Positions 1-41,859 of a DNA stretch of 64,000 nucleotides are shown here, piece by piece; the stretch's first letter is position 1, and each line of letters starts with the position of its first letter. The translations under genes were made by a program, and so were the position numbers. The DNA comes from the human T2T-CHM13v2.0 reference genome, Homo sapiens. The DNA lies in the NCBI RefSeq assembly GCF_009914755.1, contig NC_060929.1; one strand, given 5' to 3'. Under the pieces are notes generated by a model. It saw only the letters and a list, made by a program, of their open reading frames with translations, did no database searches and was not told the DNA's origin.

Positions 1-1790
1 AATTTTAAAGTTGTTATTTAGTGTTTCTACATGAAGCTATTGAGATTGATTTATGACTACCTTTTATTTCAGGATTTAATATTTCAGAAAAAAATGTATG
101 GACATTTTTCAGTGAGGTGGACTCTCCTTCAATGTGTTCAAATTCTTTCAATGAAACAAATTTTGGTTGAATTTTGCCAAGAGATGGGCATTTTAAAAAT
201 ACCTGATTTCTGCCCATATTGCTTGAGTATTGAGAAACCAAACTGGGCCCCATGCCAAAGTCTTCATAGATACCTACAGTCTAAATAGCTCACCTTTGAT
301 CACATGACAATTCAATGGCAGGATTGATCCTAAACTCACCACCTGTTTAAGCCTTGCCCACAAGCACCAAGCCTTTCTTCTAGTAGGAAAAGAGATATTC
401 CAAAGGGGCTAAGTTCCAAAAATAATTTTGGGATACATTAATGCCATCTTTAAATAGAGGTCTTTTTTTTGCATAGACTCCTTAGTTTCCTTAGTAGATT
501 TAGGGTGCAGGGAACTTATTAAGGAATCAATTAGTGCCTTATTGCTCTGTTGAGGACTGAAGGATACCCTTTCAGCACTGGGAAACTTTTTGTTCCTCTC
601 AAGTACCCATACACTTTCAGGTAATGACTAGGGGAATCTTTGATTTATAGATTGTGAACACAAAAATTCATTTTCGAGGTAGCCAGGAAAGGGAAAAAAG
701 TTTCAGAAGATCGACAGCATTAGAAACTATAGCTGAGAAAAAGAAAATCTGAGCAGAAATTATTGTGAGATATTATTCCTTCAATTCCCAGCAGCTAGAA
801 GGAAAAGGTACCTGTAGTCCTAGCTGGATATTACTTTATGATAAGCCTCTGATTATACACATTGGTCTTTCAGATTCCAACACAGGTAAAAGATTATGTA
901 GGTTTAAACCGCTGGTGCATATCAATGAGCAGATATAACCAACAATGGCCGATGGCTATCAATATGCTAAGGATAGTAAGTTGCCACAGGAAGCCTGTCA
1001 AAAAAAACTCCTCAATTCTGGCCACACAGCCACCATCCACCAGGGTCACCCAGAAACACCAGTGCTGGTTGAGGTCCCTCTTATGTCTAGTCAGGTAACC
1101 CCATTACAAAGCACTGGTGACTTGGAATCCAGGGTGATTCAAAAGACCAGGCTGATCACTAGCCACCAGCAGGTCAACTAAGTTAACTGCTGAGCACCTG
1201 AGTGCACCACTGAAGAACAAACTGGGGATGGAATTGTAACTACTGCACCAAATGGACACTGTAAGGAATGCACAAATGAAGAGACCAAGGCGTGATTCTT
1301 TTCCTGTGCACACCACTCCGGCTATTCTAACTCCCAATTCCTCTCTTCTTATTACTGCTCTATCTCTCCATGCCACTGAGGCACCATAACCCAGTTACAG
1401 AGCACAAAAGTTCCAATCCATCAATGTTTAAAAATTGGGGCATTTTTTCTCAAAGCCAATGCCAACTGCATCCTTTGGGAAAGTGTCTTCTAGCTTTCTG
1501 AATCATGCACTGGTAGGTGGTGGCTATATATTTCAGGGCAGTTATATATTGTGAGTAGCCCAGTGATGTGGGAAATGTTGTTTTTTTCATATGGGGCTTC
1601 CTCTTGTCAAGGCAGATGTAGCTGAACAAACCGGCATCCGTGACAGCCCTGGAAGCCCAGGCCCTGGAACATAGAACTACAAGCATGTCAGAATCTAAGC
1701 AGCTCCAGCGACCGCAGGAGCTACAGCTCATCCATGTTTGTTATAATTTTCTGTTTATCTCTCTCTGTCCTCATTCCTCTGTGTTTGGCT

Positions 1791-3920: not shown

Positions 3921-3974
3921 ACACTGACATTATGTGTCTGTGAAGACATAGATAGTGTCTTCCTTCTTTGTTCA

Positions 3975-4166
3975 AATATATATATATATATTTGAACGTA
4001 TATATATATATATATATATATACACGTGTATATATACACGTATATATACACACATATATATACGTGCATATATATTGTGTATATATATATACGTGTATAT
4101 ATATGTATATATATACCTGTATATATATACTATACTATACAGGTATATATATACATATATATATAC

Positions 4167-4201
<35 letters not shown>
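3975..4201. repeat. Compound (TA)n/(TACA) microsatellite ending in (CA)n
   Basis: Directly visible; it accounts for the spurious YI-repeat ORFs at 3854-4316. Confidence 0.97.
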
Positions 4202-4490: not shown

Positions 4491-5805
4491 AAGCAGCCCC
4501 AGCCCTTCAGCTTGCTGCTTTCTGCCGTCACCTTCCTCATGGTAGACAACATCAGATATTTTGATTTCAAGGTCATTCTCTTTGATTATTTCAGCATCAA
4601 AATTTTACAAAAGGATGTGGTGATGCCGACAAAATGTTGTGCCATTCTCTTATTTAGTATTGGTGTCTTCCACTCACACTCTGAATTGATACCTTGTTTA
4701 CACCACTGAAGGAAATATTAAACATGAATTTCTAAGAGATCCCACTAAATTCATGTTCAACATAAATCTTTAGTGATACACAGTGTATGTGTATACACAT
4801 AAACTGAATTTTAATGAAATTTCAATTGCGACCTTTTTATCTAGTGGTTTGAATTAGTGAGTTTGATAAGACAAAACTCATGTGGATCACAGAGGAAATT
4901 TGACTGAGTTGATTAAAATTCCCTAATATGCTTATAAATATGATTTATAAAGAAGCTCTTCTAGTAAATTTTGAAAACCCTGTTTCTTAAGATCTTTTTC
5001 ATTTTTTTCTCTCCTTGATATTACTTCTAGAATTTTTAAGACTTCTTCCTTAATGGGAAAGCTTAGTATAAAATGCAGACCCATAAGTCTTACCTACTTT
5101 TCACTTTTGATCAAGATGTTATATGCCACCCAATTTCTGAATTAACCTCAAAGTCATGCCTGCAAATAGTTTACACATTGGGCTTTCTTTACTTGTAGAT
5201 AGGAATTAGATTCTGAAAGCCTTAAAGCTCAGGAAGGACTTCATACAAACTCTAATTTCTCCTCATTTTTTTTTCCTTAAATGATGCCAGTGATGTTATG
5301 CCAAAGTGAACTAGATGTCAGATCCAGCCCAGGGAGTTGGTAAACCACTGGCCTCCTGGCTTGTGGTCAATTCAAATGAGAGTGGTGTTGTGATTTCTGC
5401 TAATAATGATCCAGGATTTCTGCAGGGGCTCAGCCCCAGAGTGCAGGATATGAGCTTCTCCCCGACCAGTGCTGTGGCCCAGAAGCTTCCCTGAGTTCCC
5501 AAGTGTTGCAGTGCAGCAGATAGTCCTGTCTTCAATTGGCAGAACAATGTAATTAGCAAGGATCCAGGGCACCAGTGGGCATTGCTCCTGCTGACTTGGA
5601 AGAATAGGCAGCTTGCAGATAAAACATTTGCCATCTAGAATGTTCTGCTTCCTGTGATGAACAAAAGGAGTAGGCCAGGGCCGTGGGCATTGTCTAAGAA
5701 AAGTTGCACCAGTCAAGTTAAATGGGCAAGGAAGACTATTCATGACTATTGCAATGGGAGAGATTGAATTCAACTCCATTGAAACATAAGGTGGGAAGGT
5801 TTTTA

Positions 5806-6299
5806 TTTTTATTTATTTATTTATTTATTTATTTTCCATTATTCTCTTTAATGTCATTAAATTTTTCTTTTTTTTTTATTATACTTTAAGTTTTAGGGTA
5901 CATGCGCACATTGTGCAGGTTAGTTACATATGTATACATGTGCCATGCTGGTGCGCTGCACCCACTAACTCGTCATCTAGCATTAGGTATATCTCCCAAT
6001 GCTATCCCTCCCCCCTCCCCCCACCCCACCACAGTCCCCAGAGTGTGATATTCCCCTTCCTGTGTCCATGTGATCTCATTGTTCAATTCCCACCTATGAG
6101 TGAGAATATGCGGTGTTTGGTTTTTTGTTCTTGCGATAGTTTACGGAGAATGATGATTTCCAATTTCATCCATGTCCCTACAAAGGACATGAACTCATCA
6201 TTTTTTATGGCTGCATAGTATTCCATGGTGTATACTTTTCTGCTGACTCACCCCAGAGTTTAAAAACCTTCCATGTGTTTATGCAGCCAAAAAACACAT
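5806..6299 (-). mobile_element. 5'-truncated young L1 (L1PA2-like) with a complex 5' junction
   Basis: L1 3' end at 5868-6234. Diagnostics gagatcac and gctagatgacGAG (not the Ta ACA). TSD ggaaggttttta at 5794-5805 and 6300-6311. Confidence 0.93.
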
Positions 6300-6340
6300 G
6301 GAAGGTTTTTAAACTCTGGGGTGAGTCAGCAGAAAAGTAT
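6232..6340. repeat. Perfect inverted repeat, 49-bp arms, 11-nt loop
   Basis: 6232-6280 is the exact reverse complement of 6292-6340. Confidence 0.97.
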
Positions 6341-7607
6341 TGAAAGTGTCTATCAGGGAGAGAGGCTGGTTGATGTGATGAGGCCATCTGTGCTTGCTAA
6401 TTGGTGCTTATTGAAGTTAGGGTTCTGTCCTCGCAAGGAGACTGGAGATAGGAGCCCTATCTTTCTTAGTGATTACATTTCAAAGGCCTAGCTCCAAGAT
6501 CCACCGGGAAGACATTTTCTGGGTTGTAAAACTAGCAAGAGACTGGGAGAAGGTCTGCATTTGAAAGGGGTAGAAAAAAATGTATAGAGGCAAGATTTCT
6601 AAAGTAAATGCTCTGAGAAAAGAAAGGCCAGGGGTCTAGAGTCAGGAAGAAACCTGTCTGCAGTTTAGTTGAGCTAAGGGAACTGTTAAGTTCACCTTGG
6701 TTGGTGCACATGGTACTTCTCCTACCGGGAATCACAGCTCAGCCCACCACATGTCCTCTGACTCTCTCACTCCTCTTCTCAGGCACTCTCTCACTCCTTC
6801 CCTTCTCAGTTCAAATACTGTCTCTGTGCCAGCCTCACTCCCTCAGGAAATCTTCCTGGAGTTCCACCACCACCCCAAGGCCGTGTCCCTAGTAATCAAA
6901 CCATATTACAATTCCTCTCTTGCTGTCTGTCCTCATCTGACACTTGTCCTGTGCTTTCTGAATCCTAGCCTGGTATTTAGATGATAGTAGAAATTCCATC
7001 AGTGCTGAGTGATTAGTCCACTAGTGGATGAACACCAGTTTCATCCAATTGTCTTAAAACACTTTAATATGGCATGTTTTCTAGAACAAGCTCAATCATG
7101 TGCAAATTTTTGCAGGGAATGTCATTTGTAATTCTTCACCTTGAGTGGACATAAAGCAAACAATGTTATGGCCATGTGGCGATCATATGGTATTTCTCCG
7201 GAATTTAAAAACCCTTCCTAAAAGTTATTATATTTGTCCATCACATTAACGTTTATATAAACATCCCACATTGCCTCATTTGATTTTTACAAGTAGTCCA
7301 TGTAGTAAAGGCATAGGACATTTTGTCCCCATTTTAAGGTAGCAATACTATCAAGTGACTGAGCCAGATGTTAATTTAACTCCAAGTCATGAGTTCTCTC
7401 ATCACCCACCCCCAACCCCTTCTTCCACTCCCACCCCCACCCCACCACATCTTTCAAAAAAGGTCCCTCCTTTCCACCAACTACCACAGTCCATCCTCAG
7501 CGAATATGGTGTGGACTCTATCTGATTCTGAATTTCTCTGACATAATAACATCTATTTTTTAATCAAGGAGTGAATAATCTGGAGGTAAAGACTTGAATT
7601 CAAGGAG

Positions 7608-7960: not shown

Positions 7961-9479
7961 ACTTGAATTCACACTTTGGGTAATTTAGACACCTAGTATA
8001 GTGCTTATTACTTGAGGATATCTTCTTAAATGAATCACTTGCTTTCAAAGGCACACTGATGCTCCCCAGCGCCAGTCTTCCTCCGTAGTCTTTCCCTTTC
8101 TTTTCTCATTTTACTTTGTCAGAGAAGCAGGAAATTTCTGCCAATGAGAGGAAGTGTGGGCAGTGGAAATTTCTGCTCCTTATGCTAAAATAGTAAGAAT
8201 ATTATAATAATGAAGATAATGAGATGATTATCCAAAATCATCTTTGATAGGAAAAAAATGAGGAACAGTAGAGATAAGTGATCTGAACAATACATAGTAA
8301 TGTAGAACCATACGGCATTTCTGGAAATTATATTCCATAATTTCTTGACATTGAGAAAGCTTCAAGGAGCATAGAACCTGCTTAATTTTTCTCAAAGAAG
8401 TCATTACTATATTTATAGTTGATATTTTTTCCTTAATATAAGGAGCCAGAACTTGTACTTCATATACTTACCAGCACATAGTTTCTCTGCGTAAATGTTT
8501 GCTGATGGAAGAAAGGAAGGAAAGAGACATTCAAAGATTGAATGATCAAGTGGGGACCCTGCATCCCATGAGGCTGAGTCACTGCCAGTCCCCAATTCTT
8601 CCCCCTCCACGGCTGCAAGCCTGCCCTCCCGACACTACAGTGGCCACCTCCACTCCTCTGGGTTGAACAAGGAAAGGAGCAGCAGAAGTTGGATGATTTA
8701 GATTTCTTCTTCAGATTAGCTATTTACCACTTAGCAAAGCTAGGAGGAGCTGAATTTGAAGGGCTGAGGACCAAAACTTGGCTCATTTGATGTAAGCCTC
8801 ACAGCAATCCAGGCAGTGGAAATGAGACATGGACCAGGTCCAGGCGAACCTTCCAAAATGAACAGGGCTGGGCTGAGCTGCCCACACACAATGTACAGTG
8901 GGGAGGCCCCAGGCATGGGGCAAACAAGGCTCCAAGGGTATCATCCATGGCATGCCTGCTACATGCTACCACCCAATGCAGGGACGCAGTTATGATCCCC
9001 ATTACCCATGTGAGCAAATGAAGACTTAGGGCTTAGGCCTATCTGGCAGAGGCTAGAGACTTCTACTTCTACCTGGGGCTGGAAATAAGGTCTGTCTATT
9101 TGCAGAGCCTGAGACACTAATTACTTCTGCTATTGACCATATTGCTCCTTCTTTCACATAAATGTGACATAGTTTGTGGAGGTCACTCTTGGGAGATCTC
9201 TTCCTGCTGTCTCCTGCAGTAGACAGCCTGAGAATGAAACATGACTTGGAGCCTCACATATCTGTGATAGAATCAACAGAGCCTGCACACGCCATTCTCC
9301 AAGCAACAGGGACCCAAAAGCTGAGGCTTGAAGGTGGTTGAAGGAGGAGCCAAAGGGAGGGTTTCTCTAACTTTCTGAGCGTTAAAGTCAAACTGCAAAG
9401 CTTTTAAGGTACGGATGAAAGCACTTTTGCAGCAATATTCACTGAAAAAACCAAATAGCCTGCTTTCTAAGAAACTTTT

Positions 9480-9864
9480 TTTTTATTATACTTTGAGTTT
9501 TAGGGTACATGTGCACAACGTGCAGGTTAGTTACATATGTATACATGTGCCATGTTGGTGTGCTGCACCCATTAACTCGTCATTTAACATTAGGTATATC
9601 TCCTAATGCTATCCCTCCCCCCTCCCCCCAACCCACAACAGGCCCCAGTGTGTGATGTTCCCCTTCCTGTGTCCATGTGTTCTCATTGTTCAATTCCCAC
9701 CTATGAGTGAGAACATGCGTTATTTGGTTTTTAACCCAAATGTCCAACAGTGATAGACTGGATTAAGAAAATGTGGCACATATACACTGTGGAATACTAT
9801 GCAGCCATAAAAAATGATGAGTTCATGTCCTTTGTAGGGACATGGATGAAGCTGGAAACCATCA
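9480..9864 (-). mobile_element. 5'-inverted (twin-primed) truncated L1PA
   Basis: Minus-strand L1 3' end at 9480-9732 joined to a plus-strand upstream L1 piece at 9733-9868; 15-bp TSD ttctaagaaactttt at 9465-9479 and 9865-9879. Confidence 0.95.
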
Positions 9865-10199
9865 TTCTAAGAAACTTTTATAATTGAAGCCAACTATCTG
9901 CTTCCTTTCAAGTCATTTCAACAGAGACAGAAATATCATTGCATTGTAGAGGCAGAAATGTCACTATACAAAGTTCAAGGTACCTGAGGGTTTGGGCCAT
10001 GAATAAACTTCGAAGATCCATTAGCACCAGAAAAATATGCACTTTGGCTAGTGTCTGTGTGTGTTTTTCTTCACTAGGGAGCCAGTCCATTATGTAATTA
10101 ATTAAAAACATGTCTGTATCAAAATTTGAACCATAAGTCCATAATGATAAAAAATAAATAGACAGGTCAATAAGTCACTAAATGGGACAGGAGAAACTT

Positions 10200-37319: not shown

Positions 37320-41158
<3,839 letters not shown>

Positions 41159-41859
41159 ACAATGAGAACACATGGACACAGGAAGGGGAACATCACACTC
41201 TGGGGACTGTTGTGGGGTGGGGGGAGGGGGGAGGGATAGTTTTAGGAGATATACCTAATGCTAAATGACGAGTTAATGGGTGCAGCACACCAGCATGGCA
41301 CATGTATACATATGTAACTAACCTGCACATTGTGCACATGTACCCTAAAACTTAAAGTATTATAATAATAAAATAAAATTAAAAAAAAGAAAAAAAAAGA
41401 AAAGGCTACATATTATATGATTACATATAAACGAAATGTTCAGAAAAGGCAAATCTATAGAGACATAAAGTACACTGGGGGCTGCTTGGGGTTGAAGACA
41501 GGAATGAATTCACTATATAAAGAGGCAAGAGAGATCTTATCAGAGTTATAAAAATGTTCTAAAATTAGTTAATACTACTAGTTGCACACCTTTGTAAATT
41601 TACTAAAAGTTATCAATTGTGTAAACAGGCAAATTTTACAGTATGTGTAATTTATATCTCAATGAACCTTTTTAAAACAAATCATAGCAATCAACCAAAA
41701 TGATTAAGTCATATGAGTAAGTTTAATGCAAATATTCACTAAAATATTGATATTTGAAAATAGTTTTCAAATAAACCAGTAATAGCCAATTAGAATATTT
41801 AGTGGAAAAAGGGTCCCAATTGTGGGAGCAACAAATACTAAAAAATATTGCTTTACTGG

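What the first reader, a model, noticed from the sequence alone, without database searches (positions are those of the whole stretch)
6232..6340. Fold-back templated duplication at an L1 5' junction creates a perfect 49-bp hairpin
Seen: the order is minus-strand L1 body, an inverted copy of the right flank (6232-6271), a 23-nt sense L1 ORF2 piece tttatgcagccaaaaaacacatg (6278-6300, identical to 40584-40606 and about 400 nt upstream of the truncation point), then the TSD. Inference: twin priming copied 23 nt of L1 RNA, the 3' end snapped back through aaa/ttt pairing, re-copied itself and about 40 nt of target DNA, and was then joined to the first cDNA by microhomology (ata). The arms have no mismatches, so the structure could form a cruciform or a long RNA hairpin.
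Basis: partly seen in the sequence, partly recalled or inferred. Interest (0 to 1): 0.75.

Follow-up and report, generated by a model that had tools for sequence, protein, structure and literature searches.

The report
Fold-back scar at an L1 insertion
A short jumping-gene (L1) copy on human chromosome 5 has a perfect 49-base-pair hairpin at its 5' end, likely left when the cut target strand folded back and copied itself during insertion, a rare kind of scar already reported in gut and tumour cells and here likely inherited.

Summary
Confirmed. Arms 6232-6280 and 6292-6340 match at 49 of 49 bp around an 11-nt loop; 100 controls reach at most 12 bp. The hairpin sits at the 5' end of a 355-nt, L1PA2-type, minus-strand L1 with an 11-nt TSD. 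A paralog of the host repeat runs across the site with one TSD copy and no hairpin. The loop holds a 23-nt L1 piece from 400 nt upstream. The copied arm contains flank, the whole TSD and 5 nt of that new L1 piece, so the fold-back likely came after twin priming and on the same strand. The class is known: Nam 2023 saw foldback plus twin priming in one somatic insertion (0.1%), and Mendez-Dorantes describe self-annealed inverted duplications. This is a likely germline example that favours snap-back over first-cDNA invasion. Extra finding: a 34-nt insert in the tail maps to one empty L1 target site on chr3, a likely 3' transduction from a source absent from this assembly. No sign of function: perfect arms are expected at this age, and Rfam hits are below threshold. 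Ape orthologs and raw reads could not be tested.

The parts
5688..6701 (.). Host: old dispersed repeat of about 500 bp (LTR-sized; family not named, no repeat library was on hand) that the L1 interrupts
   Evidence: 40 genomic paralog matches at 70-76%; extent from 7 paralog loci; L002 contiguous across the site
5794..5804 (+). Target-site duplication, copy at the L1 3' end
   Evidence: identical to 6300-6310
5805..5832 (-). Outer A-rich tail, (TAAA)n type
   Evidence: sequence
5833..5866 (-). 34-nt non-L1 insert, likely 3' transduction; matches G000:C3:74256663-74256696 at 33 of 34 nt
   Evidence: only other match in the genome, E 7e-7; chr3 site single-copy, without an L1, starting at a TT|AAAA motif and holding ATTAAA
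5867..5879 (-). Inner A-tract (the L1's own poly(A))
   Evidence: sequence
5880..6234 (-). 5'-truncated L1 body, 355 nt (end of ORF2 and 3' UTR), GAG at the 3' UTR diagnostic site
   Evidence: 95% to the window's L1 at 41007-41378; 3-12 differences from 29 closest genomic copies; GAG
6232..6234 (+). 3-nt microhomology shared by the L1 body and the copied flank (final join)
   Evidence: junction alignment
6235..6261 (+). Inverted copy of 27 nt of flank (reverse complement of 6311-6337)
6262..6272 (+). Inverted copy of the TSD (reverse complement of 6300-6310)
   Evidence: family I4 and I1
6273..6277 (+). Inverted copy of 5 nt of the new L1 piece (reverse complement of 6295-6299); found neither in L1 at this place nor in the target: the order-of-events marker
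   Evidence: L1 has other letters before the 23-mer, and the target has other letters before the TSD
6278..6299 (+). 22-nt L1 ORF2 piece, inverted relative to the body (twin-primed cDNA); 6278-6280 pair with 6292-6294; 6281-6291 is the loop
   Evidence: exact match at 40584 and 63672; same site 419-424 nt before the body start in relatives
6300..6310 (+). Target-site duplication, copy at the L1 5' end; followed by AA, giving the TTTT/AA endonuclease site
6311..6340 (+). Original flank that served as template; right arm of the hairpin ends at 6340

Best explanation
The hairpin is an inverted copy of 27 nt of flank, the TSD and 5 nt of an inverted L1 piece at the 5' end of a truncated L1, likely made in one insertion event by twin priming followed by snap-back of the same strand. 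Steps: (1, shown by TSD, TTTT/AA site and tail) ordinary target-primed reverse transcription made a first cDNA of tail plus 355 nt; (2, inferred) the second-strand 3' end primed on the L1 RNA 400 nt further upstream and stopped after about 22 nt; (3, inferred) its 3' AAA paired with a TTT 11 nt back and was extended on its own strand for 43-46 nt, through the new cDNA, the TSD and the flank, whose partner strand was resected or displaced; (4, inferred) the new 3' end was joined to the first cDNA through 3 nt of microhomology and the gaps were filled. The polymerase (ORF2p, Pol theta or Pol delta) is not identified. The product is most likely a neutral scar in an intron of a predicted lncRNA.
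For: All 49 bp and three junction overlaps are accounted for with no left-over base. 6273-6277 copy L1-derived bases that exist in neither the target nor L1 in that position, so the template was the strand that already carried the twin-primed cDNA; that strand is continuous by construction. Paralog L002 shows one TSD and no hairpin. The same outcome occurs de novo: foldback upstream of the target n=3, with twin priming n=1 (PMC10191854 section 11); inverted duplication on the reciprocal end with 2-bp self-annealing and TSD kept (bioRxiv 2024.12.14.628481 passages); 22 templated insertions under 250 bp within 15 bp of the site (bioRxiv 2024.08.27.596794 section 4). ORF2p copies DNA and RNA templates about equally, extends 5-nt primers and jumps templates (PMC10830420 passages); foldback priming at 3-15-bp repeats is shown in yeast (PMC10622511 passages).
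Against: The starting hairpin is not stable by itself (+0.3 to +1.7 kcal/mol; other folds are lower), so an enzyme must hold it. The twin-priming overlap is only 1 nt (3 of the first 4 bases could pair). The 400-nt internal deletion is far above the 14.5-bp median for twin priming. No ape ortholog, second human haplotype or raw read was seen. No second germline example turned up: 0 clear cases in 30 other junctions and 0 of 18 other matches to the loop motif.
Confidence: 0.82

Rival explanations
1. [quoted passage not shown]
For: It uses the same two 3-nt overlaps in reverse order. It is the model given in the Nam preprint (passage).
Against: The plus strand of the upstream end starts at the endonuclease nick (6311). 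To copy the TSD and 6295-6299 it would first have to be filled in, for example from an RNA remnant, or the polymerase would need two more jumps. Inference from the anatomy.
Confidence: 0.08
2. A normal 5'-inverted L1 inserted first; a later replication template switch made the inverted duplication and deleted the L1 between the pieces.
For: It would explain the unusually large 400-nt gap and the very short inverted piece.
Against: The turn lies 22 nt from the TSD, where the break end was; such products arise during insertion at 0.1-0.6%; the element is young, leaving little time.
Confidence: 0.05
3. The 22-nt piece was captured from L1 DNA elsewhere (end-joining with a templated insert), not reverse-transcribed from the inserting RNA.
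For: The 23-mer is common to many L1 copies (two in this window; most relatives), so its donor cannot be named.
Against: Position (upstream of the body), orientation and abutment on the TSD are those of twin priming. The near-repeat inside the body (6203-6217, 14 of 15 nt) matches less well than the upstream site (23 of 23).
Confidence: 0.03
4. Assembly or read artefact (fold-back chimera).
For: Raw reads were not seen.
Against: An artefact would not place an upstream L1 piece in the loop, keep the TSD and show microhomology at each junction.
Confidence: 0.02

Closest known systems
Foldback inversion upstream of the target site plus twin priming ('both' class), Nam et al. 2023, PMC10191854 (section 11 whole, supplement passages; figure 4 not visible)
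   Same: Inverted duplication of upstream target DNA at the L1 5' end together with an inverted L1 piece.
   Different: Their cases are somatic (3 foldback only, 1 both) with 52-220 bp of extra synthesis; this one is likely germline with 43-46 nt. Whether their single 'both' case turns inside the twin-primed cDNA could not be seen. Their preprint model has the first cDNA do the copying.
Inverted duplication on the reciprocal end by self-annealing, bioRxiv 2024.12.14.628481 Fig. 4D,E (passages)
   Same: 3' end of the second-cut strand self-anneals through 2-3 nt, primes synthesis, TSD kept, small hairpin.
   Different: In the passages read the turn is in genomic DNA; here it is in freshly made L1 cDNA.
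Templated insertions and 'twin priming and switching', bioRxiv 2024.08.27.596794 (section 4 whole)
   Same: Short copy of DNA next to the site built into the L1; twin priming with internal deletion.
   Different: Their switches move along the L1 RNA; orientation of the templated copies is not given in the text read; the deletion here is 400 nt against a median of 14.5.
5' extra nucleotides copied from flanks in LINE inserts, PMC4245944 (passages) and PMC2912911 (passages)
   Same: Extra 5' bases derived from flanking DNA; germline junctions with extra bases are known (3.9% of 5'-inverted L1).
   Different: The passages read give no long perfect hairpin; the second paper left out insertions inside repeats, as this one is.
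Foldback priming at double-strand breaks in yeast, PMC10622511 (abstract and passages)
   Same: Intra-strand annealing at a short repeat near a 3' end, then fill-in.
   Different: There the hairpin is ligated and replicated to a dicentric; here synthesis stopped after 43-46 nt and the end was joined to the L1 cDNA.

Membership tests
TPRT insertion of L1 | TSD around the whole insert, TTTT/AA site, poly(A) tail | tested here: met
Twin-primed (5'-inverted) L1 | Inverted L1 piece from upstream of the body, abutting the 5' TSD | tested here: met
Twin-primed (5'-inverted) L1 | Microhomology between target end and L1 RNA at the second priming site | tested here: inconclusive
   1 nt exact (6300), 3 of the first 4 bases could pair; as likely as chance
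Foldback plus twin priming (Nam 2023 class 3) | Inverted duplication of target DNA upstream of the L1 5' end, together with an internal inversion | tested here: met
Foldback plus twin priming (Nam 2023 class 3) | Made in the insertion event itself (absent from the pre-insertion allele) | tested here: inconclusive
   proxy only: paralog L002 has one TSD and no hairpin; true empty allele not available
Self-annealed inverted duplication on the reciprocal end | Microhomology at the turn, small loop, TSD kept | tested here: met
   3 nt, 11-nt loop, 11-nt TSD
L1PA2 or older subfamily | GAG at the 3' UTR diagnostic site (PMC7026601 passage) | tested here: met
   GAG in the window and in 27 of 29 closest copies; the narrower label L1PA2 rests on 99% identity to the closest copies and on recall, no subfamily library was on hand
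L1 3' transduction | Unique sequence between two A-tracts that maps to one other locus | tested here: met
   33 of 34 nt, one other locus
L1 3' transduction | A source L1 directly upstream of the tag at the donor locus | tested here: not met
   no L1 within 1.5 kb of the chr3 site in this assembly; the tag starts at a TT|AAAA motif, so it works like a transduction from an absent source, but membership is not shown
Known RNA hairpin families (Rfam 15) | Score at or above a family's gathering threshold | tested here: not met
   12 matches, all miRNA precursor models, all below gathering, several from plants and on both strands
Cruciform-forming or edited palindrome | Structure formed in cells (S1-END-seq, editing, small RNA) | not testable with these tools
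   only folding energies

The most novel reading that the evidence does not exclude
ORF2p itself turns from the L1 RNA onto its own few-nucleotide cDNA and copies back into the target, aborting twin priming; such snap-backs are a recurrent, uncatalogued class of germline L1 5' ends and a standing source of long perfect hairpins in primate genomes, and this locus is a fossil that fixes the order of events and names a lost source element on chr3.
Probability: 0.2. Interest if true: 0.6.

Novelty: new member of a known kind. Interest (0 to 1): 0.35.

Why it matters
How an L1 5' end is joined is still argued. Two published models explain foldbacks at L1 5' ends (first cDNA invades, or the cut target strand snaps back). 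In this copy the duplicated arm includes bases that were reverse-transcribed moments earlier, which favours snap-back and orders it after twin priming. It also suggests that a scar described in somatic and cancer cells passes through the germline and lasts. The rule 'does the arm include TSD and L1-derived bases' can be run genome-wide. As a single locus it has no shown function.

Tried and rejected
Hot spot at this L1 position: the 27-nt loop motif has 19 genomic matches at up to 2 mismatches, 1 being this locus; none of the other 18 loci has a perfect arm over 10 bp; they are ordinary or truncated L1 copies. Germline frequency: of 60 loci given (this one, 29 closest copies, and the first 30 of 7,990 motif matches), 1 had no anchor, 28 had the junction outside the locus, 31 showed it; of the 30 others none has a clear fold-back and one (L072) has an AT-rich imperfect 18-bp hairpin that cannot be told from its microsatellite setting. 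At 0.3-0.6% about 0.1-0.2 cases were expected, so this says little; a larger sample was not obtained. Selection or gene conversion keeping the arms perfect: not needed, P(0 mismatches) 0.38-0.66 for 3-7 pairwise differences per 355 nt (the relatives are top hits, so age may be underestimated). miRNA: Rfam below threshold. Polymorphism: six position prefixes of this site and three of the chr3 site were not found in the 3 supplements held for PMC12350158, one of them cut when stored; no evidence either way. Siblings sharing the chr3 tag: none. Print: searches showed no paper on this locus or on a germline catalogue of such hairpins; the library lacks most subscription papers and bioRxiv supplements were not seen.

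Full report
Observation. The inverted repeat is real: arms 6232-6280 and 6292-6340, 49 of 49 bp, loop 11 nt, -62.3 kcal/mol as DNA with z -14.7 and 0 of 200 shuffles as good. It is the longest perfect inverted repeat with a spacer up to 100 nt in the window; the next are TA microsatellites. In 100 Markov controls of the surrounding 2.5 kb the longest arm was 7-12 bp. In genome coordinates it starts at chr5:7,074,232.

Anatomy. A minus-strand L1 interrupts an old dispersed repeat (40 paralog matches at 70-76%; extent about 5688-6701). The TSD is 5794-5804 and 6300-6310, with TTTT/AA at the nick. Read in L1 sense from the flank: TSD, 22 nt of inverted L1 (6299-6278), a copy of 5 of those bases, of the TSD and of 27 nt of flank (6277-6235), a 3-nt overlap (6234-6232), 355 nt of L1 body, an A-tract, a 34-nt insert, a second tail, TSD. 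The L1 piece matches two other L1s in the window exactly over 23 nt and ends 400 nt before the body starts; the same spacing holds in close relatives. Paralog L002 aligns without a break across the site: left flank and right flank meet on a single TSD copy. None of the 7 paralog loci has a hairpin there. This is a proxy for the empty allele, not the allele itself.

Age. The body has GAG at the 3' UTR diagnostic site, as do 27 of its 29 closest copies; GAG marks L1PA2 or older, and L1PA2 is thought to be mostly fixed (PMC7026601 passages). It differs from those 29 copies at 3-12 of 355 positions and from their majority at only 2, each shared by 10 of 29. So it is likely a germline insertion of a few million years (the time scale is recalled, not computed). 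At that divergence the chance of no mismatch in 98 arm bases is 0.38-0.66: the perfect match needs no selection.

Mechanism. Shown: TSD, endonuclease site, tail, the inverted L1 piece, three junction overlaps. Inferred: after first-strand synthesis, the second-strand 3' end primed on the RNA 400 nt upstream (1-nt overlap at 6300), stopped after about 22 nt, folded its AAA onto a TTT 11 nt back, copied itself for 43-46 nt and was joined to the first cDNA through 3 nt. The key bases are 6273-6277. They are the reverse complement of L1-derived 6295-6299 and occur neither before the TSD in the target nor before the 23-mer in L1. The template therefore already carried the twin-primed cDNA joined to the TSD, and only the second-cut strand is continuous in that way. 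Against this reading: the starting hairpin is unstable alone (+0.3 to +1.7 kcal/mol), the priming overlap is weak, and the 400-nt gap is far above the 14.5-bp median. ORF2p can copy DNA, extend 5-nt primers and jump templates (PMC10830420 passages), and Pol delta fills in foldbacks in yeast (PMC10622511 passages); which enzyme acted here is open.

Known class. Nam et al. 2023 report short foldback inversions upstream of the target site in 3 somatic L1 insertions (0.3%) and together with twin priming in 1 (0.1%), with 52-220 bp of extra synthesis (PMC10191854 section 11; they called it undescribed at the time, supplement passage). Their preprint has the first cDNA do the copying (passage). A later preprint shows inverted duplications on the reciprocal end, primed by 2-bp self-annealing with the TSD kept (2024.12.14.628481 passages). 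Another counts 22 templated insertions under 250 bp within 15 bp of the site among about 3,600 somatic solo L1s (2024.08.27.596794 section 4). Flank-derived extra 5' bases are an older observation (PMC4245944, PMC2912911 passages). Figures were not visible, so I cannot say whether Nam's one 'both' case also turns inside the L1 piece. Searches showed no report of this locus or of a germline catalogue; PMC12350158 and PMC13174262 (passages) do not describe the class in the passages seen.

Tail insert. 5833-5866 matches one other place, G000:C3:74256663-74256696, at 33 of 34 nt, E 7e-7. That site is single-copy, has no L1 within 1.5 kb, begins exactly at a TT|AAAA motif and holds ATTAAA about 16 nt before the end of the match. 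The likely reading is a short 3' transduction from a source L1 that is absent from this assembly. Capture of a chr3 transcript by template switching is the rival; the source itself was not seen.

Recurrence. The loop motif has 18 other genomic matches at up to 2 mismatches, none with a perfect arm over 10 bp. Of 30 other L1 5' junctions visible in 59 loci, none has a clear fold-back and one is ambiguous. The sample is too small to estimate a rate of 0.1-0.6%.

Function. The locus lies in an intron of the predicted lncRNA LINC02196 (hub annotation). Either strand folds as RNA at about -86 kcal/mol. The 12 Rfam matches are all miRNA models below their thresholds, as expected for any long stem. 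Inverted Alu pairs with a 12-bp spacer stall forks (PMC7999016 passage), but those arms are far longer. Nothing here shows a function.

Verdict. Its value lies in being a likely germline case whose sequence fixes the order of events, plus the chr3 tag. Interest 0.35.

Noticed in passing
window 5833-5866 and L089 (G000:C3:74256663-74256696): 34-nt insert between two A-tracts of the L1 tail matches one empty L1 target-like site on chr3; likely a 3' transduction from a source element absent from this assembly.
   Followed up: yes
window 6203-6217 and 6280-6294: Both cDNAs stopped close to the same 10-15-nt internal L1 near-repeat (14 of 15 nt): the twin-primed one 2 nt past it, the first one about 15 nt past its other copy. 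May be chance; could mark a pause motif.
   Followed up: partly
window 9476-9868: Another short minus-strand L1 with a 5' inversion (pieces 9476-9732 and 9781-9868 in opposite orientation).
   Followed up: no
window about 1816-2636: A second, 72-75% similar copy of the host repeat family, same orientation, 4 kb upstream; a further relative lies about 650 nt from the chr3 site.
   Followed up: no
window 3970-4181: TA-rich microsatellite with perfect inverted arms up to 28 bp.
   Followed up: no
L072:about 605-646 (reverse strand): Imperfect 18-bp AT-rich hairpin ending at an L1 5' junction; could be a small fold-back or microsatellite noise.
   Followed up: partly
L010:about 1485-1527: An old L1 on contig 11 matches the 27-nt loop motif exactly through a small local duplication, without a hairpin.
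   Followed up: partly
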